64,000 nt of DNA from positions 1,799,469 through 1,863,468 of the forward strand of contig OZ246890.1 of the NCBI GenBank assembly GCA_965231815.1, read 5' to 3'. Made by a program: the position numbers and the translations under genes. Shown here in pieces: positions 18,221 to 64,000 of this stretch (positions are counted from its first letter, which is position 1; each line of letters begins with the position of its first letter). The notes under the pieces were generated by a model. That model made no database searches. It saw only the letters and a program-made list of their open reading frames with translations, and was not told the origin of the DNA. This DNA is from Acidimicrobiia bacterium (GTDB lineage: Bacteria; Actinomycetota; Acidimicrobiia; Spongiisociales; Spongiisociaceae).

Positions 18221-18293
18221 GCCGGGGTAGCTCAGTCGGCAGAGCGGCTCATTCGTAATGAGCAGGTCAGGGGTTCGATTCCCCTCTCCGGCT
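18221..18293 (+). tRNA. tRNA-Thr (anticodon CGT)
   Basis: Cloverleaf folded by hand: acceptor GCCGGGG/CTCCGGC, anticodon stem GCTCA/TGAGC, loop TTCGTAA, T-arm AGGGG-TTCGATT-CCCCT. Confidence 0.9.
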
Positions 18294-18389
18294 CCGTACT
18301 ACTTCGGATTCGTCGTGATCTCGCGCCGTTTATCGTATGAATCGGCGGGGTATCAGAAGGGTGGGTGCAGTCGACCATGGCGCAGGACG

Positions 18390-18974
18390 ATGGCTGATAG
18401 GCAGAACTTTGAAAGGGATGCCTTGGTGCACGCCCATAGGCTCTATTCGGCGGCGCTGAGGATGACCCGGAACCGGGCCGATGCCGAGGATCTGGTACAG
18501 GAGACCTTCCTGAAGGCTTACCGTGGCTACGACGGGTTCACGGAAGGGACGAACCTCCGAGCCTGGCTCTACCGGATACTCACCAATACCTTCATCAACC
18601 GCTACCGGAAAGGTCAGCGCAGGCCTAAGGAGGTCGAACTCGACGAGGTGGAGGATCTCTATCTCTACCGAAGGTTGGCGCCCACGGTGTCCAACCGGGT
18701 GGCCCGTTCAGCGGAGGATCAGGTCTTCGAGTCGCTGGAGGGGGCGGATGTCAGGGACGCTATCGATAAGCTTCCGGGTCCGTACCGGATGCCGTTGCTG
18801 CTAGTAGGTTTGGAGGGATTCTCATACAAGGAGACCGCCGCCATGCTGGATATTCCCATCGGTACGGTCATGTCCCGGTTGCATCGCGGAAGAAAGATGC
18901 TGCAGAGGCTATTGTGGGAGCAGGCGAAGGAATACGGGATCGCCACTCCGACCGAGGACGCCGATGAAGGATAA
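18390..18974 (+). CDS. ECF (sigma-70 group 4) RNA polymerase sigma factor, SigR/SigH/SigE-like
   Basis: Region 2 [12 protein letters not shown] and region 4 [23 protein letters not shown]; followed by a ZAS anti-sigma gene. Confidence 0.85.
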
Positions 18975-28513: not shown

Positions 28514-30262
28514 ATGAACTTGACCAGCAGCAACATCGAGCGCCGACTGCACCTCGGCGAAGACAGCCGTTGGGAGTTCAAAGCGATTGTCTTCACCGGG
28601 ACAGCGGTCAAAGGCCCACGCCAGCAGGATCTTGCGGATGAATTGTCGGCGTTCGCCAACGGACGAGGAGGGTTCCTTCTGTGCGGCGTAACGGATGACG
28701 GCCGAGTGCAGGGGATGACGCGAGCGCAGATGGACGCTCTGGAGCGGGTGCTGGTCGAAGCGTGCATCTCGTCGGTAAAGCCCTCTATCGACGTGGAGAT
28801 ATCTCGAATGGAGGCTGGTGGCGGGTCGCTCTTGGTGGTTGAAGTTCCGCCGGGGTACGCCCAGCACGACAGCCCGGGCGGCTGCTACCGCCGGGTGGGC
28901 AGTTCCAAACGCAGGATGACCAGCGACCAGTGTCTCCGGCTCGCTCAACAGAGAGGACAGGCCCGGTTTGTATGGTTTGATCGGCAGCCGGTGCCCGGCA
29001 CGGGGATCGAAACCCTGACCCATAGGCTGTGGAAACCATTGATCAGCGCGACAGGCGCCGCGGACACCCTGACGGCTCTCCAAAACCTGCGCCTGCTGGT
29101 CGGAGACGACGGTGACGTGTTGCGGGCGACGGTAGCAGGGATACTGCTGTGTACCGATGATCCGCAACGTTGGTTCCCTAATGCGTCCATAATGGCCACT
29201 CTCTACTCGGGCCGTGATCGAGCCTCCGGGCAGCACGACGCGCAGGAGATCACCGGTCCGCTCCATGAGCAGATCGCCGGGGCGGTACGGTTCGTGTTGC
29301 GCAACATGCGAGTGGCTGCTCGCAAGACACCCGGACGGGTTGACATACCTCAATACAGTATCGAGGCGGTATTCGAGGCCGTGGTGAACGCGGTGGCGCA
29401 CCGCGACTATTCCGTTCAGGGACAACGGATCAGGCTGTCGATGTTCGCGGATCGGCTGGAGATCGACTCACCGGGCGCTCTTCCCAACGGCATGACCATT
29501 GAGAACATGGAGGTCAGCCAATCCACACGAAACGACGTCATTGCGTCGGTCTTCGGGCGGGTTGCCGTAGCCGGCATCCCCGGTTCGCAGAACCGTCAAT
29601 TCCTCATGGAACGCCGAGGTGACGGGGTGGCCGTCATTCTTAGGCGAACCCGGGAGACATCCGGTCGGGATCCGGTTTACCGGCTGATCGACGAGTCCAA
29701 CCTCGGGCTGACTATCCCGGCCGCCTCCCTCGAGTTTGTCCCGGCCCATGCCACCGTCTCGGTTCGATCCTCGGCCGGTCCTCTCCCCGGCGCTGATGTC
29801 CTGATCCTATTCCCGAACAACACCTGGAAACGGGCCGTGACCGGCGAGAACGGGGAGACCACCGTCGCGCTGTACACGACGCATCTGCCCATGAGGGTGT
29901 TCGTAGCAGCCACCGGCTACTCGGCGCATGTGGGTAAGGAATGGATTCCCGGCCGGGGTGGGATGGTTGTTGAGCTTGATGATCTCCCCGCCGGCGGGGC
30001 GGTAATCTTTCCGGAGGGAACCGGATATGTTCCGGGATTGGCAGGGCGATTGAACCCAATCCGCGATGGCCATGACAGAACCTACCTGTACGCGTCCAAC
30101 GTCGCAATCGAGCGGGGACGCCCGCAGCCGGCCCATTTCGTACTCGGGGAAGAACTAAGCCTCACCGACGCCGAAGGCCGGGAGGTGTTGGTTCGTATGG
30201 TTGACATAGCCGGTAGCTCGGCGCTGCTTGAGTACCGGTTTCCGGTTGCTAGCCCTGATTAA
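28514..30262 (+). CDS. Schlafen-like AlbA_2 (divergent AAA) + HATPase_c_4 domain protein with ~190-aa extra C-terminal region
   Basis: N-terminal EFK ... ELSAFANGRGGFLLCGVTDDG; central NAVAHRDYSVQGQRIRLSMFADRLEIDSPGALPNGMT. Confidence 0.7.
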   Translation: MNLTSSNIERRLHLGEDSRWEFKAIVFTGTAVKGPRQQDLADELSAFANGRGGFLLCGVTDDGRVQGMTRAQMDALERVLVEACISSVKPSIDVEISRMEAGGGSLLVVEVPPGYAQHDSPGGCYRRVGSSKRRMTSDQCLRLAQQRGQARFVWFDRQPVPGTGIETLTHRLWKPLISATGAADTLTALQNLRLLVGDDGDVLRATVAGILLCTDDPQRWFPNASIMATLYSGRDRASGQHDAQEITGPLHEQIAGAVRFVLRNMRVAARKTPGRVDIPQYSIEAVFEAVVNAVAHRDYSVQGQRIRLSMFADRLEIDSPGALPNGMTIENMEVSQSTRNDVIASVFGRVAVAGIPGSQNRQFLMERRGDGVAVILRRTRETSGRDPVYRLIDESNLGLTIPAASLEFVPAHATVSVRSSAGPLPGADVLILFPNNTWKRAVTGENGETTVALYTTHLPMRVFVAATGYSAHVGKEWIPGRGGMVVELDDLPAGGAVIFPEGTGYVPGLAGRLNPIRDGHDRTYLYASNVAIERGRPQPAHFVLGEELSLTDAEGREVLVRMVDIAGSSALLEYRFPVASPD

Positions 30263-36455: not shown

Positions 36456-37775
36456 CTATCTCGACGGGGTCGGCAAGACATCGAAAACCGTCGGTTCTGA
36501 CACGTTCGCTTCCAGAGCGGTGAGAGCGGTTTCCACCACCCGCCGTCGATGCTCGAGTTCGTCGGCCTCGTCGAGGCTCGGATCGCCGAAGGGGTGGGTA
36601 ACGGCGTTGCCCTGGACGATCCGCAGCACTCCGACCGATTCGGCGAGCGGAACCAGCGCGGTGACCAAGGCGGCCGGGATACCCTGATTCTCGATTGACT
36701 TTGCCAGCGTAGACCCGCTACGCGTGCCCGTTCCTCAGGTAGAGCCCACGATCACCGCCTGCACCCCGTCGTCAATCAGAGAGCGTCCCATCTCGGCGCC
36801 TATCCGGGTCATGTCCCGAAGGGATCCCATATTGCCGGTGGTGCTCAGCAGGTCGCCATGCAGGGTAAAGCGGCCCTGTTCTTCCAGCGAGCGGGCTGCA
36901 TCGAGCGGAACCTGACGGTCGGGGTCGAGGTTGGCGAAACTGGTGTCGATGCCGCCGTGTACCGACTCGAACTCACCTTCCCTGAACCCATCCTTATCGT
37001 GGATCGGGTAGGCATACCACTTGGTAGCCCATCCCGAAGGCAGCCGGTCGGGGTTGCCGGTCGGAACGATCCCCGCTTCGGTCACCAGCGCCAGCCGGAA
37101 GGGCGCGCCCGCCACGATGGGGTCGGACGGCTCGGCCGGCCCGTACCGGGGAAGGGGCCATTCTGTCTCGTACGGCGCCCCGCGCATCTTGGCGAGCAGC
37201 ATCTCGATCGCCCTCGTTGACCCTCTAACGGATTCGAACGTGTTGCGCCGGAAGCCTTTGGTGAGGGTTCCCTCCTCCTGTGCGGCGCCGAGGCGCCGGC
37301 CGCGGCCCAGTTTGGCCACCAGCCGCGCGAGCCCCTGCAGTGCGGCCCCCATACCGGCGGCGGTCTCGGCGGTGGAAAGAACGGGAACCGAGGCCCGGTA
37401 CTCGACGGCGCCCGGGCTATCGGCATGGAGCCCGGTCACGGACGGTATTCCGAGCCGGTCGGTCACGGCTTTGCAGACTGCGCCGCAGGCAAGACCGTAC
37501 CTACCGGATCCGAATCCCGGACCCGCCACCACGATATGGGGCTCGAATCCGGCTATCAGGTCTACCACCTCGTCTACCGCGGCCTCCCCGCGCTCGGCCA
37601 TGTAGTTGTCGCCGCAGATAACCGTGCCCACGATCCGCTCGTCATCTTCCAGCAGGCGGTCCAGGCCCCTACCCGTACCTACCGGTCCCGGTTGAGAGAC
37701 CGGTCCGCTCCCGGCACGGTCCTCCCCGCCGACCCCACCGAAGAACTGGTTTAGATAGTGGACGATCCTGATCAT
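36456..37775 (-). CDS. grdB: Glycine/sarcosine/betaine reductase selenoprotein B family, with in-frame UGA (Sec) at 36735-36737
   Basis: Motifs flanking the UGA AVIVGST-U-GTGTRSG and downstream GIPAALVTALVP ... RIVQGNAVTHPFGDPSL are conserved; two listed ORFs (36735-37775, 36456-36668) are collinear through TGA. Confidence 0.8.
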
Positions 37776-37782
37776 GGTCCTA

Positions 37783-39117
37783 TCAGTACTCCTCGCCGCG
37801 AATGCATGTGTGTCCGAACTGGTGCGTGCTTGCCAGCACGACCGCTAGCGGGGCTTCGAAGGCCCCCGCAGGATCGTTCTCGATCTGGATCAGGCGTTCT
37901 CCGCCGATAACTCGCTCCACGGACTCGAAAAGGACAGTCTCCTCGTAGTTCCCGGTGCTAACTATGGCATCCGCTTCCGGTACGAAGTGGACGAAGCCCG
38001 ACTCTCCCGGATTGGCGGCCATCTCCATCGACAGCATCGTTGTCGCTACTCCGCGTCGTTCTAGATTCCGGCAAACCATCATGGCATCGACCGCCGGATG
38101 TCCTCCCCCGGCGTAGTTGATCAGCGCCCCTTCCGCTCCCATCATTATCGCCAGGTTGGAGGCATGGTTGGCAAGTCGTTCCTTGGCGGCCCGCGTGTCG
38201 CCGTTGGTGAACAGCACCACTCCCCGGAATTCGATGTCCTTACCGTGACGAGCGTACAGATCCTCGATGATGGCGTGGTTCTGCACCGTATAGGTCAGTT
38301 CCCTCATGCAGGCGATAGCGTTCCAGCCGCACACCAGCGCCCCGTCGAGCAACTCGTTCGGATGGATCGGTGTGGGGAGATGTGCGCTGCCACCGATTGC
38401 GCCGGCGCCGGGGGCGATCTCGCCATGCAGAAAGGGGATGGCAAGTTGGTAAAGGTAGACGACTGCAGGCAGGTCTCGCACCCCTGAAGGAGCCAGATCG
38501 AAGGTGTCTACCCGGTCGGGTGTCTGACCGAGGGTGGCGGACGCCAAGTGCCTGGCGGCCTTTAGGCCGGCCAACCTGACCGCCCGATTGTATTCCACCG
38601 CCTCCGGAGTTCCCTCGAAGATGTTGTCAGGCCGGTCGCCGCTCTCGAGAAGGGAGCGGGTCGGTTCGCACGACACCACCACGTTGATGAGTTCGGAGAA
38701 GGGAGAGTACCTGGCGGTGGGGCCCGCCATGTCGAAGATCGCCTCTCGCCAGTAGCGGGGCTCTCCCGGCACCGGACGCGCCGTCTCGACGACCGATACC
38801 CCCTTGAGAGCATAGGTGGCGCCGGACCCGACCGGTCGGGGGCCGGTAAGGAGGCCCGAGAAGTCGGCGCCTTCCGGATCCACCTTGATCCGCGGCTCGA
38901 CCGCGTCGATGGCGTTTATGACCCTTACCGGGTCTCCCGGTCTGACGATACTTACCGATACAGAAGCAAAGTTGGGGTCGTCGGCCAGTATTTCCTCAAG
39001 TGCGTCTATGTCGATGGTGAGCACCCCGCCGGCCAACTCCGTGTGGGAGCCTTCCCTGACCTCGGTGACCTGGAAGGAGCCGATATCCAGTACCTGGCGG
39101 AGCGGGCCCGAGTTCAC
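37783..39117 (-). CDS. grdE: Glycine reductase proprotein GrdE-like (PrdA/GrdE family)
   Basis: DGALVCGWNAIACMRELTYTVQNHAIIEDLYARHGKDIE follows the proprotein family pattern. Confidence 0.75.
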   Translation of the reverse strand: MNSGPLRQVLDIGSFQVTEVREGSHTELAGGVLTIDIDALEEILADDPNFASVSVSIVRPGDPVRVINAIDAVEPRIKVDPEGADFSGLLTGPRPVGSGATYALKGVSVVETARPVPGEPRYWREAIFDMAGPTARYSPFSELINVVVSCEPTRSLLESGDRPDNIFEGTPEAVEYNRAVRLAGLKAARHLASATLGQTPDRVDTFDLAPSGVRDLPAVVYLYQLAIPFLHGEIAPGAGAIGGSAHLPTPIHPNELLDGALVCGWNAIACMRELTYTVQNHAIIEDLYARHGKDIEFRGVVLFTNGDTRAAKERLANHASNLAIMMGAEGALINYAGGGHPAVDAMMVCRNLERRGVATTMLSMEMAANPGESGFVHFVPEADAIVSTGNYEETVLFESVERVIGGERLIQIENDPAGAFEAPLAVVLASTHQFGHTCIRGEEY

Positions 39118-39175
39118 CGTGACGATCCCTTCACGACCAGGCGGTGGTCGGGACGTTCCGTGTAGACGACGCGCC

Positions 39176-40165
39176 TCATATAACCTGTGGCAGTCCGAGC
39201 ATCCGGCGTGCCTGAGCGGGGGTGGCGATCTCGCGGTTCATCTCTTCGGCGACGCGACGTATCCGGCTCACCAACTGCCCGTTGCCGCTGGCCTTTTCTC
39301 CCCGCCGGAAGTAGATGTTGTCTTCCAGTCCTACCCGCACATGGCCGCCGAGGAGGATTCCCAGGACGTTCATCGGGATCTGAAAGGGTCCGGTCCCGAT
39401 GACCGAGAAAAGGGCGCCGGACGGCAACTCGTTGATGAGCGACATGAGGTTGGCAGGGGTCGGGAAGGACGCCGTCTGCGCGCCGAGGACGAACTGGACC
39501 ATGTATGGAGGGGTGACATTCTCGTTGTATATGAGGTCTCGAAGTACCCAGTACTGGCCCGGGTCGTAGATCTCGAGTTCAGGCTTCATACCCCGTTCCA
39601 CGATTATGGACGCGTAGTGGTTGATCTCGCCGTAGGTTGTCCCGCTGCACATGTCGTATTCGATCGGCCCGCGGGGGTGCGGTAGGTGGGCGGGACGCTC
39701 CGGCATGGTGAAACTTGACACGAATGGACCGAGGTTGAGAGTCGCCACGTCGGGCGCCGGGTCGGAGAACAACGGGGAGTAGCGTTCTTCGGTGGTCAGA
39801 GTCGGACCACCACCGGTGCTGTTGTTGATTATCACGTCGGGGCACTGCTCGCGGATCATCCGGTTCACGCGCCCGTAGTCCTCCGGGTTCCCGCTGCACT
39901 GGCTCCAGTCCTGCGGGTCCCTGACGTGCACATGGATCTGTGAAGCTCCTGCTTCGTATGCCTGGCGCGCTTCCTCGGCTTGCTCCTCGGGTGTCTCCGG
40001 TAGGGCGGGATTCGACTCCTTGCCGTGGCCGCCTCCGCTTATGGCAGCGGTGATGATCAAGGGCGGAAACGCGCTACGGGCTGTTTTCCGCATCCAGAGA
40101 TACGGGTCACGAAAGTCCCAGGTTGCTTCGATTTCACCCATGTTGTCCCTTTTCGCGCCAATCAA
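39176..40165 (-). CDS. 3-keto-5-aminohexanoate cleavage enzyme family (BKACE/DUF849)
   Basis: PLIITAAISGG ... IHVHVRDP ... GLEDN TIM-barrel signature; start may be the internal Met at 40141. Confidence 0.7.
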   Translation of the reverse strand: MIGAKRDNMGEIEATWDFRDPYLWMRKTARSAFPPLIITAAISGGGHGKESNPALPETPEEQAEEARQAYEAGASQIHVHVRDPQDWSQCSGNPEDYGRVNRMIREQCPDVIINNSTGGGPTLTTEERYSPLFSDPAPDVATLNLGPFVSSFTMPERPAHLPHPRGPIEYDMCSGTTYGEINHYASIIVERGMKPELEIYDPGQYWVLRDLIYNENVTPPYMVQFVLGAQTASFPTPANLMSLINELPSGALFSVIGTGPFQIPMNVLGILLGGHVRVGLEDNIYFRRGEKASGNGQLVSRIRRVAEEMNREIATPAQARRMLGLPQVI

Positions 40166-40261
40166 CCGTCCGACCGGCTCCGTACGGTTTCGAGGAGTCG
40201 CCGACCGATCCGGTACATAACCTACCCTATTTCTTAGACCTTACCTGTCACGACGGGCTGG

Positions 40262-40621
40262 CTAGGAGGCGAGTGGTTCCAGCTTGGACAGCAGGTCCGA
40301 GACGTGCGCCAGGTAGTCCTCGACGGTTTCGCCGGGCAGCCAGCCTTCATAGAGGTTGGTGTGTAGGGCGCCTGCCAGGCCGAACGCGGTCCGAATGTCC
40401 CGGTCTCCGGTCTCGTCCGCTAGGCGGTTGACCACGCGCCATAGCTGGTGATGTCCACCGTGGGGCCATCCTCGGGCCTCGGCGATGCTCTTGACCATCT
40501 GAGCAGCGGCGCCCTAGCCCTTCTCGGAGGCTTGCAGCAGGTCGCCCTCGGCTAGGTAGGTCCGGGCTCTGGCCAGAAACTCCCGTCCGGTAGTGTTGTA
40601 GTATCTTGTCTTAGTAGTCAT
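40262..40621 (-). pseudogene. HEPN-like small protein disrupted by an in-frame TAG (probable TGG to TAG nonsense mutation)
   Basis: Minus-strand reading MTTKTRYYNTTGREFLARARTYLAEGDLLQASEKG-TAG-GAAAQMVKSIAEARGWPHGGHH; both halves in one frame separated only by the stop at 40514-40516. Confidence 0.45.
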
Positions 40622-41063
40622 GGGGATATCATATCGTAATTGTGGGTAAATGAAGCAGCCGGGCGACGGTGTTTCTCAACAGGTCGGCCGTCTCGTCTTC
40701 AGCCACGACCAGCGCGCCATAGCGCTCCATGTCGAGCCGGTTGGGCGCGTGGTGAGGGAACCGGGAACCGCATGTCGGTGTTGATGATGGGGGTCATTCC
40801 GGTGAAGAAGTGAACCGGGATGTCGAGTTTCCAAGGCCTTCTCGTAGATAGGATCGAGTCTACGGTCACTCTTGTGGTGCTCGCCGCGGCAGTCATCGAC
40901 CCGGAGCGCACCCGCCGCTGATCACGGGAACCAGTCGCATGGCGACCGTCCGGCGATTCGAGACCGGGCCGCACCTCGGTTGCGACTACCCTCCATACTT
41001 CGAGAAAATATGCGGACCCCCGTTGTGCTGCGGGTCCGGTCAGCCTGGAGACTGCAAGAGTTT

Positions 41064-42488
41064 ATGCGGGAACCCGCCATCCTCAATAGCGCCTACGCGC
41101 TGGCCCACGCTCCCGAACTGGTGCGTTATGGATCGAAACCCGTTCGCGAGATCCGTCGTGATCCGTCTCTCCTGCCGTCGATGACCGAGGGGCTGCGGCC
41201 CTGGAATGAGGTGATCGGGTATCCACCCAACCAGGTTTTCATCGGCAATCTGCAACCTCGCGACCTTGTTTCGATCCCTCGACCCTGGTACAGGAACCGG
41301 GTCGAGCATGCCGTCCCTTCCGGGCCTTTCGGGCGGATGATCACCCAAGCCGCGCTCTACGGGCTCATGAAGTTGTGTGATGACTTCGATCTGTTGACTA
41401 TCGACGAGAAGCTTGCCGAACAGGCCAGGCTGGAACTCATCGAGTTCGATCACCGTAGGGACCGGATCGTCGGCGCCGATCCGGCCGAGTTGAAGGAACT
41501 CCTCGACGGGGGTAGCGGTCTTCCGCTCTACCACGGCACTCGCGTCGCGGGTTTCATTCGTACGGCCCATGAACAGGACGCCTCGCTGGCGGCATCGGTC
41601 TTGCTCGAGAACCTGGCGTGCAAGGCGACCGCGGTCCTAGCGGTTTCCGATCTTCTGAGGTACGGCAGCCTTGCGCCCTCTCGGGTCGATTACCTGTTCA
41701 ACAGCGGTGAGGAGGCGGTCGGAGACCGCTACCAGCGGGGGGGCGGGAGCCTCTCGAAGGCGATCGGCGAAGTGGTGGGATGCGTGAACGCCACCGGGTC
41801 CGACCTCAAGGCGTTCTGTGCCGCTCCCGTCCACGCCCTTATCGCGAGCGGGGCGATGGTTGCCGCGGGACTCTACGATCACGTCGTGGTCCTCGGCGGC
41901 GGCTCGCTGGCCAAACTAGGTATGAAGTTCGCAGCCCACCTTCGCAACGGGGTACCGGTCATGGAGGACTGTCTGGCTTCCATGGCTTTCCTGGTAGGAC
42001 TCGCCGACGGAGACGCAATGCGGTTGCGGCTCGACCTGACGGGCAAGCATCCGATCGGCGCCGGGTCGTCCCCCCGCGCGGTATACGAGGCGTTGGTGAT
42101 CGAACCGTTGGCCAGGGTCGGTCTTGGCATCACCGACGTCGACAGGTACGCGGTGGAGATGCATAACCCGGAGATCACCGAACCGGGAGGGAGCGGCGAC
42201 GTTCCCAGAACCAACTACCGTACTCTCGGAGCGATGGCGGTGCTGCAGGGAGAGATCGGGAGAAGCGACATCAATCGTTTCGTGGCTGAACACGGAATGC
42301 CGGGCTTCGCTCCCACACAAGGCCACATTCCCGCCGGAGTACCCTATCTGGGCCATGCTCAGCAGGCTATGGATCGGCAGGAACTGGACAGGGCGATGAT
42401 CGTCGCCAAGGGAAGCCTGTTCCTGGGACGGATGACGCAGTTGGTGGACGGGGTCTCTTTCGTGGTTGAAAAGGAACGCCGTCCGTGA
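41064..42488 (+). CDS. GrdC-like protein (glycine reductase protein C component, PlsX/FA_synthesis fold), tentative
   Basis: ~475 aa, HVVVLGGGSLAKLGMKF pattern; sits directly upstream of grdA; start uncertain (ORF begins at 40872). Confidence 0.45.
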   Translation: MREPAILNSAYALAHAPELVRYGSKPVREIRRDPSLLPSMTEGLRPWNEVIGYPPNQVFIGNLQPRDLVSIPRPWYRNRVEHAVPSGPFGRMITQAALYGLMKLCDDFDLLTIDEKLAEQARLELIEFDHRRDRIVGADPAELKELLDGGSGLPLYHGTRVAGFIRTAHEQDASLAASVLLENLACKATAVLAVSDLLRYGSLAPSRVDYLFNSGEEAVGDRYQRGGGSLSKAIGEVVGCVNATGSDLKAFCAAPVHALIASGAMVAAGLYDHVVVLGGGSLAKLGMKFAAHLRNGVPVMEDCLASMAFLVGLADGDAMRLRLDLTGKHPIGAGSSPRAVYEALVIEPLARVGLGITDVDRYAVEMHNPEITEPGGSGDVPRTNYRTLGAMAVLQGEIGRSDINRFVAEHGMPGFAPTQGHIPAGVPYLGHAQQAMDRQELDRAMIVAKGSLFLGRMTQLVDGVSFVVEKERRP

Positions 42489-47752: not shown

Positions 47753-47865
47753 ACGTTCCGCATTGCGATTTACCGGCCCGCTCGCTTCTGCCCTGGTTCA
47801 GAACGCGGTAGACTGACCGGCACCTAGTATCCCTGTGGCGGGGTTCGATGAGGAGGAAGGGCACC

Positions 47866-48966
47866 ATGTTGTACACGAGAAACAGGCTGTTGATCTTGTT
47901 GATGGCTCTCGGGCTGCTGGTTACGGCATGCGGTGGCGATGATGATCCGAGTGTCCTCACCGCAACCCAAGTGACCTCCGACTCGCCCGACGCTCCTCCC
48001 CCTCCTGCTGCTGGTGAGGCGATCAGGGTTGGTTTGGTGTATGACATCGGTGGTAGGGGTGATCAGTCGTTCAATGATGCGGCAGCGATTGGTTTGGATC
48101 GTGCGGCGTCTGAGTTGGGTATTGAGTTCTCGGAGGCTTCGGCTAACGAGGATGGGACGAATCGTGAGGAGTTGTTGGCGCTGCAAGCTTCCGAAGGCGC
48201 TGACCTGGTGATCGGGGTGGGTTTCTTGTTCGGTGAGCCGATGGCCAATGTGGCGTCCGAGTTTCCCGATACGCACTTTGCGATTGTGGATTCGACGGTT
48301 GATTCTCCCAATGTGGCGGGGTTGATCTTTGCTGAGGAGCAGGGTTCGTTTCTGGTGGGTGTGGCTGCGGCTCTCAAGACCCGGAATGAGACTGTCGGTT
48401 TCATCGGTGGTGTGAACATTCCGTTGATCCATGCGTTCGAGGCGGGGTTCCTGGCTGGTGTCCAAGCTGTCAATCCGGATATCACGATCCTTTCGCAGTA
48501 CGTGACGGAGCCGCCGGATTTTGATGGTTTTAACGATCCTGCGGCGGGCCGGGTGGTTGCCCAGTCGATGTTCGAGCAGGGCGCCGATGTGATTTATCAC
48601 GCGGCGGGTGGTACCGGTGGTGGTTTGTTCCAGGCTGCGAAGGACTTTTCGGAGGCCAACGACACTCATGTGTGGGCTATAGGGGTTGACTCGGACCAGT
48701 ACTTGACCGCCGGTGACTTCCAGTCGTACATCCTGACTTCGATGCTCAAGCGGGTGGATGTGGCGGTGTTCAACACCATCCAGGCTGTCCAGAACGGTAC
48801 GTTCAATGCGGGCCCACAGGTTTTCGATCTCTCGGTCGACGGGGTCGGCTATTCCACGTCGGGCGGGTTCGTTGACGATATTGCTGCCGAACTTGAGGAC
48901 TATAAGCAGCAGATCGTGTCCGGGACGATTAACGTGAGTCCAGACCCGGCTGATTACCAGGGCTGA
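47866..48966 (+). CDS. BMP-family (PnrA-like) ABC transporter substrate-binding lipoprotein, probably nucleoside-binding
   Basis: Lipobox LLVTAC; SD GGAGG 9 nt upstream of the ATG; mature domain has G/T-rich codon usage. Confidence 0.85.
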   Translation: MLYTRNRLLILLMALGLLVTACGGDDDPSVLTATQVTSDSPDAPPPPAAGEAIRVGLVYDIGGRGDQSFNDAAAIGLDRAASELGIEFSEASANEDGTNREELLALQASEGADLVIGVGFLFGEPMANVASEFPDTHFAIVDSTVDSPNVAGLIFAEEQGSFLVGVAAALKTRNETVGFIGGVNIPLIHAFEAGFLAGVQAVNPDITILSQYVTEPPDFDGFNDPAAGRVVAQSMFEQGADVIYHAAGGTGGGLFQAAKDFSEANDTHVWAIGVDSDQYLTAGDFQSYILTSMLKRVDVAVFNTIQAVQNGTFNAGPQVFDLSVDGVGYSTSGGFVDDIAAELEDYKQQIVSGTINVSPDPADYQG

Positions 48967-49005: not shown

Positions 49006-50517
49006 ATGACCCTTGCTGTACACCTTGAAGGGATAACCAAGCGCTTTCCCGGGGTAGTGGCGAACGACAGAGTCAACTTGACGGTCGAATCCGGCGAGAT
49101 CCACGCCATATGCGGGGAGAACGGCGCGGGCAAGTCAACCCTGATGAAGATCATCTACGGGATGCAACCCCCTGACGAGGGCCGGATTGAGATTTTCGGG
49201 GAGGAGCGGCACTTCGGCTCCCCGAAGGAAGCCATCGACGCGGGTATCGGCATGGTCCATCAGCATTTCATGCTGGCGGACAACCTTACCGTCCTCGAGA
49301 ACGTCATCCTCGGAGCGGAGCCGTCCAAGGGGTCGCTGATAGATTTCTTGACCGCCCGAACCCGGCTCCGCGAGCTGGGAGATGCCTACGGGCTGGAGCT
49401 GGATCTCGACGATACGGTCGAGACTTTGGAAGTCGGCGAACGTCAACGCATCGAGATCATCAAGATCCTCTACCGCGGCGCCCGGATTCTGATCCTCGAC
49501 GAGCCCACCGCGGTGCTCGTACCTCAGGAAGTCGAAGAGCTGTTCCGCAACATGCGGGAACTCAAGGCGGAAGGCCACACGATCATCTTCATCGACCACA
49601 AGCTGGACGAGGTGTTGGAGATCGCCGATTCGATCACGGTTCTCCGTCATGGTCGCTCGGTGGCTACCGCTGATCCCGCCGACGTGACCGCACAGGATCT
49701 GGCCGAGTTGATGGTCGGTTCGGAACTCCCGACGCCGGGCGTACGCGTCTCGACGGTCACCGATCAGAGCGTGATCGAGGTGCGGGGCATCTCGGCGACT
49801 GACGAGGTCGGGGCGCCAAGACTGCGCCATGTGGACTTTTCCTTGCATAGCGGCGAGATCGTCGGCATCGCGGGTGTGGAGGGAAACGGTCAGGCCGAGT
49901 TGGTCGAGGCGATCCTAGGGATCTCGCCACTCACCTCCGGGTCGATCCGTATGCATGGTGAGGATGTGACGGAGTGGTCGGTACGCCAGAGGCGGGAGGC
50001 CGGTCTGGGTTACATTCCCGAGGACCGGCACCGGAGGGGTCTATTGTTACCGGCGCCGGTTTGGGAGAACAGTATTCTGGGCCATCAGACCAGGGAACGT
50101 TTCCTGAGTTCAGGATTGTGGATCGACGAGGATGCCTCCAAGGGACACGCGGCCGAGGTGGTCGAGCGCTTCGATGTGCGCACACCGGGCGTCACGACAC
50201 CCATTCACGCTCTGTCAGGGGGCAACCAGCAGAAGTTGATCGTCGGTCGGGAGATGTCGACCAAGTGCAATCCCCTGATCGCCGCTCACCCCACCCGAGG
50301 TATTGATGTGGGGTCGCAGGCGGCAATCTGGGAGGAACTTCGCCGAGCGCGAGGGGAGGGCCTGGGTGTGCTCCTGATCTCGGCCGACCTTGAGGAGTTG
50401 ATAGGGTTGAGTGACACGTTACTGGTCATGTTGCGCGGCGAGATCGTGGCCCGGCTCGATCCTGCGGAGGTCAGCCCGCGTGAGCTCGGGGCCTATATGA
50501 CCGGAGCCGCCGTATGA
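49006..50517 (+). CDS. ABC transporter ATP-binding protein with duplicated ATPase domains
   Basis: Two Walker A/ABC signature sets (GENGAGKST, LSGGNQQK). Confidence 0.85.
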   Translation: MTLAVHLEGITKRFPGVVANDRVNLTVESGEIHAICGENGAGKSTLMKIIYGMQPPDEGRIEIFGEERHFGSPKEAIDAGIGMVHQHFMLADNLTVLENVILGAEPSKGSLIDFLTARTRLRELGDAYGLELDLDDTVETLEVGERQRIEIIKILYRGARILILDEPTAVLVPQEVEELFRNMRELKAEGHTIIFIDHKLDEVLEIADSITVLRHGRSVATADPADVTAQDLAELMVGSELPTPGVRVSTVTDQSVIEVRGISATDEVGAPRLRHVDFSLHSGEIVGIAGVEGNGQAELVEAILGISPLTSGSIRMHGEDVTEWSVRQRREAGLGYIPEDRHRRGLLLPAPVWENSILGHQTRERFLSSGLWIDEDASKGHAAEVVERFDVRTPGVTTPIHALSGGNQQKLIVGREMSTKCNPLIAAHPTRGIDVGSQAAIWEELRRARGEGLGVLLISADLEELIGLSDTLLVMLRGEIVARLDPAEVSPRELGAYMTGAAV

Positions 50518-51644
50518 GCCGGATGCGGGCGATCCGAAGGGTCATGGGTCCGCCGGTGGGCGCCGTGCTGCTCGCACTCATTGTCGCCTCGGTGATCCTG
50601 TTCGTCTCCGGTGCGAACCCCTTTGTCGCGTTCGGCAACGTGATCGAGTACGGCACACGGTTGGAAACCCTCGTCGAGTCTTTCAACCGGGCTACGCCGC
50701 TTTACCTGTCCGGTATCGCGTTCGCCATCGCTATGAGGATGAACCTCTTCCAGATCGGTGTAGAGGGACAATACATCCTGGCTGCTTTCGTTGCCGCCTA
50801 CGTGGGGGCCGGCGTGGGTTCGTTGTTCCCTCCGCTGCATGTCCTGATAATCCTTGTCGTGGCGATGCTGGTGGGAGCGGCGTGGGCCGGTCTGGCCGGA
50901 TGGATGAAAGTGACCCGCAACGTCCACGAAGTGATATCGACTATCATGCTCAACGCCATAGCGGTGGGCGGCGTAGTGTCCTTCCTCTTGGGCCGGTGGA
51001 GTATCGAGAGTGCCTCCCTGGATACCCGTCTGGGAGACATTGCCACCACCGGCTGGTTCCCGAGCCTCAACCCCATCCTTGAGTTGGTCACCAGGGAAAT
51101 AAGACGCGTGGAGTTGACCGGCTTCATCCTTGTGGCGGCTGCGGTCGGTATCGGCTACCACCTCCTCGTCAACCGGACCCGGCTCGGGTTCGATCTCCGG
51201 GCTACCGGGACCAATCCATGGGCTGCCGAAGCCAGCGGGGTGCCACCCAAACGGACGATCGTTCTGGCGATGCTTCTCAGCGGTGCGGCGGCGGGCTTGG
51301 TGGGGATGGCCGACCTGCTCGGAGATCAGCATTTCTACAGTCTCCGGTTCCCTCAAGGTCTCGGTTTCGCCGGCATAGCGGTGGCTCTTCTAGGTCGCAA
51401 CCACGCGGTAGGGGCAGCCATCGCGGCGGTTGCCTTCGGCTGGCTCGAACGAGCCTCAGGGATACTGGAGGTCAGGGGTGATGCCCCGAGGGAGATAGTC
51501 ACCATAATGGTGGGTGTAATCATCCTGTTCGCGGTTATCGCCTACGCATTGGCGCAGCGCCGGGGACGGATCGAGGCAGCCGCGGCAGCCGCTGCACAGG
51601 TGACGGAAGCGTCAGGGCCGGATGCTGAGGAGGCCGACACATGA
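50514..51644 (+). CDS. ABC transporter permease
   Basis: Multi-TM protein; overlaps the ATPase stop. Confidence 0.8.
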   Translation: MSRMRAIRRVMGPPVGAVLLALIVASVILFVSGANPFVAFGNVIEYGTRLETLVESFNRATPLYLSGIAFAIAMRMNLFQIGVEGQYILAAFVAAYVGAGVGSLFPPLHVLIILVVAMLVGAAWAGLAGWMKVTRNVHEVISTIMLNAIAVGGVVSFLLGRWSIESASLDTRLGDIATTGWFPSLNPILELVTREIRRVELTGFILVAAAVGIGYHLLVNRTRLGFDLRATGTNPWAAEASGVPPKRTIVLAMLLSGAAAGLVGMADLLGDQHFYSLRFPQGLGFAGIAVALLGRNHAVGAAIAAVAFGWLERASGILEVRGDAPREIVTIMVGVIILFAVIAYALAQRRGRIEAAAAAAAQVTEASGPDAEEADT

Positions 51645-52924
51645 GTACAGTGCGCGAGCCGCCGCTGATCACCCTGCGGGACAACGTCATGCAGGGGAGG
51701 CGGCGATGGCTCGTATTCGGTCTTGGCGCCGTGCTGCTCTTGGCGGCCACTCAGATGTTTGCCAAGCAGGCTACCGACGATCTGACCTCGAGCGGGACTT
51801 GGGCCATAGCTCTTGCCTGGTCGGTTCCGATCCTCATGGCCGGACTGGGGGGCGTGTTCTCCGAGCGGGCCGGGGTGGTCAACATCGGCCTTGAGGGCAT
51901 GCTGATCCTGGGGACCTGGTTCGGGGCATTCGGCACGATGATCGGTGGGCCATGGTTCGGGATGCTCTTGGCGGCGGTCGCCGGTGGTGTGGGCGGTTTG
52001 ATAATGGCGACGGCCGCGGTCGGCTTCAACGTGGACCACATCGTTGCCGGGGTGGCCGTAAACCTCATGGCGCCCGGGCTGACCCGCTTTTTGTCCGACC
52101 TGCATTTCTCCGACCGGGGCGGATCGATCACGCAGTCGCCCAACATCAGTGGTGTCAGCAGCTTCAGCTTGCCGATCCTGGCGGGTGGAACCGTATTCGG
52201 GTGGAAGAGCCCTGATGTCCTGGGATCGATCGAGAATGCCGAGGTGTTCTGGTTATCGGATCTAGCCGGAATAGCGAGGGGTTTCGTATTCCAGATGTCC
52301 TGGTTGACGTTGATCGCGTTTCTCATACTGCCACTGTCGATTGTCCTGCTCTGGCGGACCCGCTTCGGTCTGCGGTTGCGGAGTTGCGGGGAGCACCCTC
52401 ACGCAGCCGACTCTTTAGGTGTGAACGTTTACAAGTACAAGTACTACGGGGTCGTGATCAGCGGAGCCTTAGCCGGGTTCGGTGGCGGGTTCCTCGCCAT
52501 ACAGCTATCCGGCCTGTACAAGGAAGGCCAAACCCAGGGCAAAGGGTATATCGGACTGGCCACCATGATCTTTGGGAATTGGAATCCGATCGGAACCGCC
52601 CGCGGCGCCATCCTCTTCGGCTTCACAGAGACGCTGCGACTGCGAGACGAGAGCGCCGCCCACGCGCTGCTCCTGCTGGTCGCTATCGCCGTCGGTCTGC
52701 TCCTTATCTGGCGCATTCTTCGCCGGAGTGGACGGCTGGGTACCGTGCAGTTGGCAATCGTCGCGGTAGCTGTCGGCTACTGGTATGCAAACTCGACCGG
52801 CGTACCTAACCAACTCCCCGCTATCACTCCCCACATAGCGGTGTTGGTGGTGCTCTTGTTCGCCACTTCACGTCTCCGGCCTCCTGCTGCTGACGGTCTT
52901 CCATTCCGTAAGAGCGACCATTAA
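51641..52924 (+). CDS. ABC transporter permease (second)
   Basis: Multi-TM protein; overlaps the previous stop. Confidence 0.8.
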   Translation: MSTVREPPLITLRDNVMQGRRRWLVFGLGAVLLLAATQMFAKQATDDLTSSGTWAIALAWSVPILMAGLGGVFSERAGVVNIGLEGMLILGTWFGAFGTMIGGPWFGMLLAAVAGGVGGLIMATAAVGFNVDHIVAGVAVNLMAPGLTRFLSDLHFSDRGGSITQSPNISGVSSFSLPILAGGTVFGWKSPDVLGSIENAEVFWLSDLAGIARGFVFQMSWLTLIAFLILPLSIVLLWRTRFGLRLRSCGEHPHAADSLGVNVYKYKYYGVVISGALAGFGGGFLAIQLSGLYKEGQTQGKGYIGLATMIFGNWNPIGTARGAILFGFTETLRLRDESAAHALLLLVAIAVGLLLIWRILRRSGRLGTVQLAIVAVAVGYWYANSTGVPNQLPAITPHIAVLVVLLFATSRLRPPAADGLPFRKSDH

Positions 52925-57889: not shown

Positions 57890-58774
57890 ATGATTGAAAC
57901 GCGGGTTGTTCGTAGTTCCGATGCCGCTGGTGGGTCGGATGGATCGGAGGGTGGTTTGGAAGAGACCGGAGAGGTGTCGGTTGCTCCGGCCCGTCAGGTT
58001 CCCAAGAAGGCAGCCGCTAAGAAAGCTGCCGCTAAGAAAGCTGCCGCTAAGAAGGCACCTGCCAAGAAGGCTGCCGCTAAGAAGGCACCTGCCAAGAAGG
58101 CTGCCGCTAAGAAGGCTGCCGCTAAGAGGGCTCCCGCCAAGAAGGCTGCCCCTAAGAAAGCTGCCGCCAAGAGGGCTCCCGCCAAGAAAGCGCCCGTGAG
58201 GAGGGCCCCACCCAAGCGCCGGAATCCGCGGTCACGCAAAGCTTCCCGGAAGTCGTCTTCAACCAATAGGCGGAAGATTTCATTCAAAGTAGGCGACAAG
58301 GTAGTCCATCCTCATCACGGAGCTGCGTTGATCACCAGACAAGTTGAACAGGAGGTCGTGGGCGAGAGTCGTTCCTACTTCGAACTCCAAGTTGCAACCG
58401 AACAACTCACCGTGTTCGTGCCGGTAACGTCGATGGATCAGATTATCCGGCCGGTGATCTCCAAGACCGCCGCTACCAAAGTGATGCGCATCTTCAAGGA
58501 AGACCCTCAGTCATCGGGAAACAACTGGAGTCGATGGTACAAGGTGCTCAACGAGAAGATGACCTCCGGCGACATCTACCAAGTGGCGGAGGTGGTCAGG
58601 GATCTGACCTATTCCCAGCACACCAAAGGTATTTCCCCGGCCCTCAAACGCATGCTGTCACGGGCACGGGTAACGCTGACCAGTGAACTCGCCTATGCCC
58701 TCAGTATCAGCACGGAAGAGGCGGTCGAGCGTCTTGATCGGGCTCTCCCCGATGCGGAGTCCGTAGGCGTTTAG
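57890..58774 (+). CDS. carD: CarD/CdnL-family RNA polymerase-binding regulator with ~130-aa N-terminal Lys/Ala-repeat extension
   Basis: [21 protein letters not shown]-interacting domain and [28 protein letters not shown]; N-terminal [10 protein letters not shown] repeats; followed by ispD-ispF-cysS as in mycobacteria. Confidence 0.8.
58005..58195 (+). repeat. Tandem 15-bp coding repeat (GCCGCTAAGAAAGCT-like, AAKKA pentapeptide) inside carD
   Basis: About 12 consecutive near-identical 15-nt units. Confidence 0.7.
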
Positions 58775-63120: not shown

Positions 63121-64000
63121 ATGCGAAAGCTAGCAATGTTGATCATGTGCCTTGCCTTGGTAGTGGTCTCCTGCGGAGATGGAGAGCAAGAATCGCAACA
63201 GACAACCACGCAGCCGGCTGAGGCCGTGACGACTACCGCGGCGTCCGGCGAGGGCGCATCTTTCGAAGCCGGCCCGTTGGGTGTGGTGGAGGTTGGTGTT
63301 GGTGAGGAGATTCAGGTTCGGTCGTTGAATGCTATTTCGGGGGATGTGGCGTTTTTGGGTCTTCCGAATCAGCGTGGGGTGGAGTTGGCTATTGCTGATT
63401 ATGGGCTGATTGCGGGTCGTTCGGTGTCGTTGGGTACGGGTTTGGATGATTTGTGTTCGCCTGAGGGTGGTCAGGCGTCTGCGCAGTCGGTGGTGGCGGA
63501 TCCGTCTGTGGTGGGTGTGATCGGTACTTCGTGTTCGGGTGCGGCGGTGGCGGCGGCGCCGTTGATTTCGGATGCGGGGATGGTGATGATTTCTCCGTCT
63601 AATACGTCGCCGGCGTTGACGTCGGATTTGGCTGGGACGCCGGGTTCGGCTTATCAGCCGGGGTATTTCCGGACGGCTCATAATGATTTGTTTCAGGGTC
63701 GGGCGGTTGCGTTGTTCGTTCGTAATGAGTTGGGTTTGAACAGGGCGGCGGCTATTCATGATGGTGATCCGTATACGCAGGGTTTGGCGCAGGCGTTTGC
63801 GGATGCGTTTGTGGAGTTGGGTGGTGAGGTTACGACGTTTACGGCGGTTAATAAGGGTGATACGGATATGACCGCGGTGTTGACTGAGGTGTCGTCGGGT
63901 GGTCCTCAGGCGGTGTTTTTCCCGATTTTCATGCCGGAGGGTGGTTTCATCGTTCAGCAGGTGGGTGGTGTGTCTGGTCTTGATGGGGTGGCGTTGATCG
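63121..64000 (+). CDS. Branched-chain amino-acid (LivK/LivJ-family) ABC transporter substrate-binding lipoprotein, 3'-truncated by window end
   Basis: SD GGGAGGGAG upstream of the ATG; lipobox VVVSCG; not in the ORF track because no stop falls within the window. Confidence 0.75.
   Translation, partial: MRKLAMLIMCLALVVVSCGDGEQESQQTTTQPAEAVTTTAASGEGASFEAGPLGVVEVGVGEEIQVRSLNAISGDVAFLGLPNQRGVELAIADYGLIAGRSVSLGTGLDDLCSPEGGQASAQSVVADPSVVGVIGTSCSGAAVAAAPLISDAGMVMISPSNTSPALTSDLAGTPGSAYQPGYFRTAHNDLFQGRAVALFVRNELGLNRAAAIHDGDPYTQGLAQAFADAFVELGGEVTTFTAVNKGDTDMTAVLTEVSSGGPQAVFFPIFMPEGGFIVQQVGGVSGLDGVALI

What the first reader, a model, noticed from the sequence alone, without database searches (positions are those of the whole stretch)
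47866..48966. Compositional mosaic in a substrate-binding lipoprotein gene: native signal/lipobox region followed by a G/T-rich, C-poor mature domain
From about 47990 onward the coding strand switches to GGT/GTT/GAT/TTG-rich codons (for example GGTTTGGTGTATGACATCGGTGGTAGGGGTGATCAGTCGTTCAATGATGCG). The 5' signal-peptide part and the downstream ABC ATPase and permease genes keep the genome-typical C-ending codon usage. The same pattern is seen in the LivK-like substrate-binding gene at 63121-64000. This suggests domain-level replacement of mature substrate-binding modules from a differently composed donor onto resident signal peptides, or a strand- or transcription-associated mutational process acting on these genes.
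Basis: seen in the sequence. Interest (0 to 1): 0.55.

Follow-up and report, generated by a model that had tools for sequence, protein, structure and literature searches.

The report
Binding-protein genes recoded to G/T wobble
Two nutrient-binding-protein genes of a marine (sponge-associated family) actinobacterium have had almost every free third codon base pushed to G or T inside the gene body, an extreme, gene-specific and gradually evolved skew that is not foreign DNA and whose cause (strand-specific DNA damage in heavily transcribed genes, or selection for a C/A-poor mRNA) is still open.

Summary
In the Bmp/PnrA-like lipoprotein gene (47866-48966), 70% of codons end in G or T. The 28 other + strand genes average 51% (z = 9.3). 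In the LivK-like gene (63121 to the window end), 232 of 242 codons after codon 52 end in G/T, 82 of them in a row, with no A. Signal peptides, linkers, untranslated flanks and the downstream ATPase and permease genes are normal.

Replacement by a foreign donor is not supported. Both genes sit in conserved synteny, and the LivK tree follows the species tree. The skew is graded among 41 LivK orthologues (35-97% G/T). It recurs in several marine Acidimicrobiia and is always stronger in the 5' half. The other state is the classical C-rich one.

The bias affects every codon family, including T over C in two-fold codons and TTG over CTG. It also shifts amino-acid composition, so it acts on nucleotides, not through tRNA choice.

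My best reading (0.42) is transcription-linked C-to-T and A-to-G pressure on the exposed sense strand of very highly expressed genes. The main rival (0.33) is selection for a C/A-poor mRNA, for example against the C-specific actinobacterial RNase E or against Rho. I could not separate the two with the data available.

The parts
47866..48966 (+). Bmp/PnrA-like ABC substrate-binding lipoprotein gene (366 aa), first gene of a nucleoside-type ABC operon. Whole-gene GT3 is .70.
   Evidence: Pfam PF02608, E = 2e-62. Identical protein P0002 is on a 4.08-Mb contig. Composition.
47850..47856 (+). Strong Shine-Dalgarno sequence (GAGGAGG) 10 nt before the ATG at 47866
   Evidence: Read directly from the sequence.
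47866..47931 (+). Signal peptide with lipobox V-T-A-C (Cys22). Composition is not skewed.
   Evidence: Translation, codon view, z = 0.8 for 47866-47997.
47932..48000 (+). Pro/Asp/Ser/Thr-rich linker. Its end (APPPPAAGE) resembles the inter-domain linker of the two-domain Bmp in relatives, so it is a likely deletion junction.
48001..48654 (+). G/T-wobble block of the Bmp gene (codons 46-263). GT3 is .79.
   Evidence: Change-point analysis; z = 9.8 for 47998-48627.
48655..48963 (+). 3' third of the Bmp gene. The skew has decayed (GT3 about .60, C3 .37-.43), but A3 is still about .03.
49006..52924 (+). ABC ATPase (49006-50517) and two permeases (50514-51644, 51641-52924) of the same operon. Their composition is genome-typical.
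   Evidence: Pfam; z = 0.8, -0.3, 0.2.
63121..64000 (+). LivK-type (Peripla_BP_6) substrate-binding lipoprotein gene, cut by the window end. The full protein, P0121, is 440 aa.
   Evidence: Pfam PF13458 and PF01094; P0121 is 100% identical.
63121..63273 (+). Signal peptide (lipobox V-V-S-C, Cys18) plus a Thr/Gln/Glu/Ala-rich linker. It is not skewed (GT3 about .5) and is rich in A-ending codons.
63274..63999 (+). Near-absolute G/T-wobble block. 232 of 242 codons end in G/T, 82 of them consecutive, and none ends in A. C content of the mRNA is 43% lower and all-A/C triplets number 4, against about 70 expected.
47824..48669 (-). Codon-aligned antisense ORF. It is a by-product of the lack of A-ending sense codons, not a gene.
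   Evidence: Frame arithmetic; no Pfam match.
63130..63759 (-). Codon-aligned antisense ORF. It is a by-product, not a gene.
   Evidence: No Pfam match.

Best explanation
Both genes are resident, vertically inherited substrate-binding-protein (SBP) genes of a 'Candidatus Spongiisociaceae' (Acidimicrobiia) genome. Their ORF interiors have been driven in place from the ancestral C-ending, A-poor codon usage typical of highly expressed actinobacterial genes to an almost pure G/T ('keto') state at every synonymous site.

Shown:
- The change is graded among lineages and strongest in the window and its sister genome.
- It recurs in several marine Acidimicrobiia and is stronger in the 5' half of the gene.
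- It is uniform over all codon classes: NNC to NNT, NNA to NNG, CTG to TTG.
- It comes with a parallel shift at non-synonymous positions: fewer Ile, Glu, Thr and Asp; more Val, Gly and Ser.

Inferred mechanism. These are the most heavily transcribed genes of a slow-growing organism. Their non-template (sense) strand is repeatedly exposed as single-stranded DNA, in the transcription bubble, in R-loops, or in negatively supercoiled 5' regions. There the two amino bases deaminate (C to U, read as T; A to hypoxanthine, read as G). The template strand is shielded and preferentially repaired. Purifying selection on a very conserved protein leaves only synonymous and conservative changes. The genome-wide GC preference and codon-level selection then choose among the G/T options (NCG, GTG and TTG, but GGT rather than GGG).

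The result is the gene-scale equivalent of the deamination-driven strand asymmetry known from leading strands and from vertebrate mitochondrial DNA.
For: 1. In-place, vertical origin: conserved synteny, a species-congruent LivK tree, and continuous GT3 from .35 to .97 in 41 orthologues.
2. The direction is exactly amino to keto on the sense strand, and equal in all codon classes. T/(T+C) is about .83 in two-fold and about .87 in four-fold codons. G/(G+A) is .93 and .98 respectively. TTG outnumbers CTG 45 to 2. This is opposite to the near-universal C preference in NNY codons, so it is not tRNA adaptation.
3. Positions 1 and 2 follow the same trend. GT content there correlates with GT3 (Spearman rho = .68, p = 9e-7). 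Amino-acid composition moves from A-containing to G/T-rich codons.
4. There is a 5'-to-3' decay in every skewed orthologue. For example, first half versus second half is .78/.57.75/.55 and .69/.41. The last 25-45 codons are left in the ancestral C-rich state.
5. There are signs of very high expression. Both genes have strong Shine-Dalgarno sequences. The LivK core is 82-92% conserved where CysS is 65-84%. LivK SBPs are the second most detected bacterial function in a sponge metaproteome (PMC6081418).
6. Neighbouring genes on the same strand are normal, so replication skew alone is excluded.
Against: - The 5' UTRs, the signal-peptide and linker codons, and the spacers between tandem skewed SBP genes are not skewed (GT .47-.58). 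A simple transcription-unit-wide mutational bias should affect them.
- In the window and its sister genome the linker has stayed unskewed despite long divergence.
- The 5' boundary tracks the start of the folded domain (codon 52, 47 or about 24 in different lineages), not a fixed distance from the start codon.
- At four-fold sites G:T is about 2:1 whatever the ancestral base, and Gly prefers GGT. So deamination alone is insufficient.
- The excess of A/C-to-G/T changes at amino-acid-changing sites (about 2:1) is not significantly above the controls at 1.2-1.4:1.
- ClpC, FtsH and CarD, which are usually well expressed, are not skewed.
- No bacterial precedent of this magnitude turned up in the literature searches.
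Confidence: 0.42

Rival explanations
1. Selection on the mRNA itself. The ORF body is kept C-poor and A-poor, hence G/U-rich, because this raises the yield of an extremely abundant protein.

The most concrete version concerns RNase E. Actinobacterial RNase E cleaves immediately 5' of cytidines and limits the decay rate of most mRNAs. Purging C lengthens the half-life.

A second version concerns Rho, which loads on C-rich, G-poor RNA. Purging C and adding G prevents premature termination inside the ORF. C-rich sequence in the last 100-150 nt is harmless, or even useful for lowering expression of the downstream permease genes.
For: - The skew is confined to the ORF interior; UTRs and spacers are normal.
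- C content of the LivK core is 121, against 213 expected. YC dinucleotides number 63, against 116 expected. All-A/C triplets number 4, against 70 expected.
- G is preferred over T wherever both are allowed.
- The exempt 3' tail and the 5'-to-3' gradient are what selection against Rho termination predicts.
- Mycobacterial RNase E: more than 90% of mapped cleavages are 5' of C, and the enzyme is rate-limiting for most mRNAs (PMC10641625).
- Low A3 is already present in unskewed orthologues, so the new feature is mainly loss of C.
Against: - The 5' linker of the window and sister LivK genes is the most C-rich part of the transcript (C .36-.41, C/G ratio above 1). It is the worst place for an RNase E or Rho target, yet it persists.
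- Ser and Arg do not move to the C-free codons AGT and AGG.
- The decline of A at non-synonymous positions is not predicted by a C-specific model.
- A cleavage in the unconverted tail would still destroy the message, which counts against the RNase E version.
- Predicted mRNA folding changes only 13-15%, and not beyond what composition alone gives.
- RNase E specificity and Rho behaviour are unknown for Acidimicrobiia.
Confidence: 0.33
2. Lineage-specific translational selection. G- and T-ending codons are the optimal codons of this clade because of its tRNA pool or wobble modifications. The SBP genes are simply its most biased genes. The signal peptide and linker use rare A-ending codons to slow early translation for export.
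For: - The skew is gene-specific and confined to the ORF.
- The signal peptide and linker are enriched in the rarest codons, the A-ending ones.
- There are codon-specific choices: GGT rather than GGG, and NCG rather than NCT.
- The window carries a tRNA-Thr(CGT) gene that reads ACG.
Against: - T is preferred over C in all two-fold NNY families, each read by a single G34 tRNA. This is opposite to the pattern seen across bacteria (own knowledge: Sharp et al. 2005) and cannot come from tRNA abundance.
- The bias has the same strength in every codon class and extends to non-synonymous positions and amino-acid composition.
- The strength decays 5' to 3', and the last approximately 40 codons are exempt.
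- ClpC, FtsH and CarD show no trace of it.
Confidence: 0.1
3. The mature domains were replaced by recombination with a differently composed donor, leaving the native signal peptides in place.
For: - There are sharp internal boundaries, with native-like 5' and 3' ends.
- SBP genes in this family recombine readily: tandem copies, fused two-domain forms and concerted evolution are all seen.
- The Bmp breakpoint coincides with a probable deletion junction.
Against: - Synteny and phylogeny are congruent with the flanking genes.
- Orthologues show intermediate skews.
- No organism is known whose genome-wide codon usage is G/T-ending at 61% GC, so there is no plausible donor.
- In about 1.9 Mb of fetched actinobacterial DNA, long G/T-wobble blocks occur only in these SBP genes.
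- No mobility genes flank either gene.
Confidence: 0.05
4. Assembly or sequencing artefact, or a hidden antisense gene that imposes the pattern.
For: Long stop-free antisense ORFs overlap both genes.
Against: - The same pattern appears in independent assemblies from different sources and technologies: an NCBI MAG, a Logan short-read assembly and ENA long-read contigs. The proteins are intact and conserved in all of them.
- The antisense ORFs are an arithmetic consequence of having no A-ending codons, and they have no Pfam match.
- Their codons could only start with A or C.
Confidence: 0.01

Closest known systems
Replication- and transcription-associated strand asymmetry in bacteria (G>C and T>A on the leading or sense strand, attributed to deamination of exposed single-stranded DNA; e.g. 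PMC2031905, and own knowledge of Lobry 1996 and Francino & Ochman 1997)
   Same: The direction is the same: C to T and A to G on the sense strand. It is linked to expression. The window also shows the ordinary genome-wide form: GT3 is .49-.58 in + strand genes and .39-.47 in - strand genes.
   Different: Known transcription-linked skews are a few percent. Here two genes reach 79-96% G/T at wobble positions while same-strand neighbours are normal. The skew is also confined to the ORF interior, with sharp edges.
Strand asymmetry gradient of vertebrate mitochondrial DNA (own knowledge: Reyes 1998; Faith & Pollock 2003)
   Same: Two of the four bases are almost lost at four-fold sites, and there is a positional gradient attributed to time spent single-stranded.
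   Different: That asymmetry is replication-driven and genome-wide. Here it is gene-specific and presumably transcription-driven.
5'-localised transcription-induced mutation asymmetry and AID-type hypermutation footprints in vertebrate genes (PMC2927911; own knowledge: Polak & Arndt 2008)
   Same: The effect starts some distance after the gene start, spares the leader, decays towards the 3' end, and is a deamination signature on the non-template strand.
   Different: Those are eukaryotic and, for AID, enzyme-driven. Nothing comparable is described for bacterial chromosomal genes.
Classical codon bias of highly expressed genes
   Same: It is gene-specific, has very low A3, and affects abundant proteins. 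Orthologues in other Actinobacteria show exactly this C-rich form (C3 .5-.6).
   Different: Here T replaces C even in NNY two-fold codons, and the bias spills over into amino-acid composition.
C-specific RNase E of mycobacteria (PMC10641625) and C-rich/G-poor Rho utilisation sites (PMC6407284, PMC6144790)
   Same: Both give a functional reason why an actinobacterial mRNA might be purged of C.
   Different: No case of ORF-wide C-purging as an evolved defence against either has been described. It is untested in Acidimicrobiia.

Membership tests
Bmp/PnrA-like ABC substrate-binding lipoprotein (PF02608) | Full-length match to the family profile | tested here: met
   E = 2.3e-62, profile positions 5-297 of 301.
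Bmp/PnrA-like ABC substrate-binding lipoprotein (PF02608) | Lipoprotein signal peptide with a lipobox Cys, and an operon with an ABC ATPase and two BPD_transp_2 permeases | tested here: met
   Lipobox VTAC with Cys22. Operon genes at 49006-52924. A nucleoside hydrolase lies next to the operon.
LivK-type SBP (Peripla_BP_6, PF13458) | Profile match, lipobox, and LivHMGF genes downstream | tested here: met
   Profile match; lipobox VVSC with Cys18. LivH/M/G/F genes follow the orthologue in L084, L086, L087 and L088. The window ends before them.
Horizontally acquired or mosaic gene segment | Atypical composition relative to the host genome | tested here: met
   z = 9.3 and 13.7.
Horizontally acquired or mosaic gene segment | Phylogeny incongruent with flanking genes, or absence from the syntenic site in relatives | tested here: not met
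   Synteny is conserved. LivK identities follow the species order.
Horizontally acquired or mosaic gene segment | An identifiable donor composition, or mobility genes at the borders | tested here: not met
   No mobility genes are nearby. G/T-wobble blocks are found only in these SBP genes in 1267 ORFs from about 150 loci.
Translationally selected codon bias | Preference for C over U in two-fold NNY codons, and for codons matching the major tRNAs | tested here: not met
   GAT 14/14, AAT 6/7, TAT 4/4, CAT 2/2, ATT 8/11.
Translationally selected codon bias | The same bias in ribosomal-protein, EF-Tu and chaperone genes of the genome | not testable with these tools
   None of these genes is in the window. 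The source genome could not be fetched.
Transcription-associated strand asymmetry | Sense-strand excess of G over C and T over A, uniform over codon classes | tested here: met
Transcription-associated strand asymmetry | Extends over non-coding transcribed flanks | tested here: not met
   Upstream regions and spacers have GT .47-.58. Transcript ends are unmapped, so the weight of this test is limited.
Transcription-associated strand asymmetry | Scales with transcription level across genes | not testable with these tools
   There are no expression data for this organism. The only evidence is indirect: a slowly evolving protein and a sponge metaproteome.

The most novel reading that the evidence does not exclude
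Marine and sponge-associated Acidimicrobiia repeatedly evolve a 'keto-wobble' recoding of their most abundant transporter-binding-protein genes, with the ORF interior purged of C and A at every free site. Two causes remain possible. One is an undescribed adaptive mRNA design that makes the message a poor substrate for C-directed RNase E or Rho, or for ribosome-dependent RNases, and so sets the SBP:permease stoichiometry. The other is a self-reinforcing, R-loop- or supercoiling-driven local deamination regime, a bacterial counterpart of a hypermutation footprint, in genes for exported proteins.
Probability: 0.3. Interest if true: 0.8.

Novelty: new variant of a known kind. Interest (0 to 1): 0.62.

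Why it matters
Synonymous-site composition is normally treated as a weak, genome-wide signal. Here two genes next to normal neighbours reach an almost binary third-position code: 96% G/T, 82 codons in a row.

If this is mutational, transcription can dominate the mutation spectrum of individual bacterial genes in slow-growing symbionts. It can also shift their protein composition. That affects how atypical composition is read as evidence of gene transfer, how dS is used as a clock, and how codon-based expression predictors work.

If it is selected, it reveals a natural recipe for high-yield, long-lived or termination-proof mRNAs in Actinobacteria. That recipe could be tested directly by recoding.

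In either case the graded series of orthologues is a ready-made natural experiment.

Tried and rejected
- Fetching the source genome failed. Exact look-ups of the window proteins found nothing. So ribosomal and EF-Tu genes and a genome-wide scan were out of reach.
It worked only on the window and the loci already fetched.
- Parsimony-polarised substitution counts on the window branch were too few and were confounded by the GC difference of the outgroups.
- The asymmetry test at amino-acid-changing sites gave about 2:1, against 1.2-1.4:1 in controls. This is not significant.
- Near-identical contig pairs gave too few SNPs for a frequency-spectrum test. The metagenome scan returned no relative more than 79% identical.
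- Promoter/terminator scans and Rfam found nothing informative.
- mRNA-structure minimisation is rejected as the main cause. The predicted MFE is only 13-15% weaker, with no effect beyond composition.
- An antisense-gene explanation is rejected.
- Other apparent G/T blocks in Streptomyces and other loci are off-frame or antisense artefacts of repeats.
- Literature searches found no prior description.
Full report
**Context.** The window has 61% GC. It carries the actinobacterial gene order ClpC ... DisA-CarD-IspD-IspF-CysS-RlmB. The closest species representatives belong to 'Candidatus Spongiisociaceae' (Acidimicrobiia), at 77-85% amino-acid identity for the Bmp protein. The flagged gene is a Bmp/PnrA-like substrate-binding lipoprotein (PF02608, E = 2e-62). 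It is followed by an ABC ATPase and two permeases, with an inosine-uridine nucleoside hydrolase nearby. The true start is 47866: it has a GGAGG Shine-Dalgarno sequence, and the identical database protein P0002 is 366 aa. The second gene (63121 to the window end) is a LivK-type lipoprotein (PF13458). Its full-length form, P0121, is 440 aa.

I use GT3 for the fraction of codons ending in G or T.
- The Bmp gene has third-position composition A .03, C .27, G .41, T .30, so GT3 is .70. The partial LivK gene has A .04, C .09, G .52, T .35, so GT3 is .87.
- The 28 other + strand genes have mean GT3 .51 (sd .04, max .58).
- I re-encoded the same proteins with the codon usage of the other + strand genes. 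This gives z = 9.3 for Bmp and z = 13.7 for LivK. The ATPase and permeases give z = 0.8, -0.3 and 0.2, and ClpC gives -2.4.
- Within Bmp, the signal peptide and linker (47866-47997) are normal (z = 0.8). The stretch 47998-48627 is strongly skewed (GT3 .79, z = 9.8). The last third is weakly skewed (.60, z = 3.0).
- The formal two-breakpoint test for Bmp is only marginal: logLR 9.6 against a permutation maximum of 12.7.
- LivK is dramatic. Codons 1-51 are about 50% G/T-ending. Then 232 of 242 codons end in G/T, 82 of them consecutive, with no A at all. The change point has logLR 36.8 against a permutation maximum of 8.5.

**Nature of the bias.** It is not restricted to particular amino acids. 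In LivK the counts are:

| Codon | Count |
|---|---|
| GAT | 14/14 |
| AAT | 6/7 |
| TAT | 4/4 |
| CAT | 2/2 |
| ATT | 8/11 |
| GAG | 12/13 |
| CAG | 13/14 |
| TTG | 18/21 |
| GGT | 27/37 |
| GCG | 26/37 |

- T/(T+C) and G/(G+A) are equally extreme in two-fold and four-fold families.
- At four-fold sites the outcome is G:T of about 2:1, whatever base an unskewed orthologue has there. These sites are therefore saturated.
- T over C in NNY codons is the reverse of classical translational selection (own knowledge).
- Recoding removes 43% of the C and 29% of the A from the LivK core. All-A/C triplets fall to 4, from an expected 70 or so.
- Predicted local mRNA folding weakens by only 13-15%, with nothing beyond the effect of composition.
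- The long antisense ORFs are an arithmetic by-product of having no A-ending codons. They have no Pfam match.

**Not a foreign module.**
- Related genomes keep both genes in the same places.
- The sister genome (contig CAZEZF010000004.1; ClpC 96.6% identical) has a LivK orthologue that is 89% identical overall and 92% in the core, with the same block. There the block covers codons 47-393 at GT3 .96, logLR 53.8. Because that gene is complete, it also shows that the last approximately 45 codons are not converted.
- LivK core identities follow the species order given by CysS.
- Among 41 LivK orthologues aligned over 242 core columns, GT3 runs continuously from .35 to .97. Family members score .75-.81.
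- Several more distant marine Acidimicrobiia score .62-.79 (for example L102, L135, L121, L123). Many others show the classical form: C3 .5-.6 and A3 .01-.03.
- Bmp behaves the same way at lower amplitude: window .70, sister .64, other relatives .52-.62. In non-Acidimicrobiia Actinobacteria the Bmp gene is richer in C3 than its neighbours.
- The unconverted 3' tail has the ancestral C-rich composition in skewed and unskewed orthologues alike.
- Not all lipoproteins are affected. An SBP_bac_5 lipoprotein next to the skewed LivK in L089 has GT3 .48, and an SLH-domain protein in L001 has .50.
- In 1267 ORFs from about 150 fetched loci, long G/T-wobble blocks occur essentially only in these SBP genes. 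Other hits were off-frame artefacts.

**A real junction near 47990.** Relatives (L001, L004-L006) encode a fused two-domain Bmp whose domains are homogenised by conversion. Third-position differences between the two domains are .08 and .29, against about .40 between species. The window gene has one domain. Its linker end, APPPPAAGE, matches their inter-domain linker. So the leader was probably joined to the second domain by an intragenic deletion. This explains why a composition step sits there without invoking a donor.

**A nucleotide-level force.**
- GT content at codon positions 1 and 2 rises with GT3 (Spearman rho = .68, p = 9e-7; not phylogenetically corrected).
- The most skewed genes have more Val, Gly, Ser and Phe, and less Ile, Glu, Thr, Asp, Tyr and His.
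- A direct asymmetry count at amino-acid-changing sites gave 2:1, against 1.2-1.4:1 in controls. This is suggestive but not significant.

**Position dependence.** In every skewed orthologue the first half is more skewed than the second. In the most extreme lineage the block has spread over all but the last approximately 45 codons. Upstream regions, signal peptides, the linkers of the window and sister genes, and the spacers between tandem skewed SBP genes are not skewed (GT .47-.58). The 5' edge coincides with the start of the folded domain, at codon 52, 47 or about 24 in different lineages.

**Mechanism.** The evidence for expression is indirect.
- Both genes have strong Shine-Dalgarno sequences.
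- The LivK core is far more conserved than CysS.
- LivK SBPs are the second most detected bacterial function in the Aplysina aerophoba metaproteome (PMC6081418).

Two classes of explanation fit.

(i) Transcription-linked, sense-strand deamination (C to T, A to G), with protection or repair of the template strand.
- This uniquely predicts that exactly the two amino bases disappear, at all codon positions.
- It has precedents in leading-strand and mitochondrial asymmetries, and in 5'-localised transcription-associated asymmetry in vertebrates (PMC2031905, PMC2927911, own knowledge).
- It struggles with the unskewed UTRs, linkers and spacers. It also needs additional selection to explain G over T and GGT.

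(ii) Selection for a C/A-poor message.
- Mycobacterial RNase E cleaves 5' of cytidines and limits the decay of most mRNAs (PMC10641625). Rho loads on C-rich, G-poor RNA (PMC6407284, PMC6144790; listed).
- The ORF-interior restriction, the gradient and the exempt tail fit avoidance of Rho.
- However, the most C-rich segment of the transcript is the 5' linker. Ser and Arg do not switch to C-free codons. The loss of A at non-synonymous sites is not predicted.

I rank (i) at 0.42 and (ii) at 0.33. tRNA-based selection gets 0.10, the donor mosaic 0.05 and an artefact 0.01. Data that could separate (i) from (ii) were not obtainable here: population frequency spectra, whole-genome profiles and expression data.

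**Novelty.** Strand asymmetry and expression-linked codon bias are well known. I found no description of gene-specific, near-absolute G/T wobble coding with internal boundaries. I file it as a new, extreme variant of a known kind.

Noticed in passing
L001 9197-11125; L004 10001-12064; also L005 and L006; window 47932-48000: Relatives encode a fused two-domain Bmp binding protein whose two domains evolve in concert. The window gene has a single domain, and its linker looks like the relatives' inter-domain linker, which suggests a deletion.
   Followed up: partly
L086 7421-9919; L117 3719-6775; L120 3494-6451: L086 has an in-frame exact tandem duplication of the LivK gene (832 aa). L117 and L120 have ORFs that fuse a LivK-type domain with an SBP_bac_5 domain. 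These could be real fusions or assembly or frameshift effects.
   Followed up: no
window 36735-42488: A cluster of a GrdB-like gene (full-length PF07355 match with no in-frame stop, so apparently not a selenoprotein), a glycine/sarcosine/betaine reductase B-like gene, a BKACE gene and a DUF5940 gene. This is unusual metabolism for an Acidimicrobiia.
   Followed up: no
window 57890-58774: CarD carries an N-terminal Lys/Ala/Pro-rich, histone-H1-like extension of about 130 residues. Relatives L086 and L089 lack it (161 aa); L087 has it.
   Followed up: no
window 18221-18295: A tRNA-Thr(CGT) gene overlaps the start of the sigma-70 ORF as I called it (18258-18974). The real sigma-factor start is probably further downstream.
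   Followed up: no
whole window: The window shows ordinary replication-strand skew. Genes on the + strand have GT3 .49-.58 and genes on the - strand .39-.47. Overall G exceeds C and T exceeds A on the + strand, so + is probably the leading strand.
   Followed up: partly
L015 4268-5257: An M19 membrane dipeptidase gene in another Acidimicrobiia has a local block at its 5' end where 54 of 60 codons end in G/T. It is the only non-SBP example seen.
   Followed up: no
window 10251-14102 and 28514-30262: A 1283-aa DEAD-box helicase with an N-terminal topoisomerase-type zinc ribbon, and a Schlafen/AlbA_2 protein with a RecG-C-like ATPase domain. These are possible defence or repair genes.
   Followed up: no
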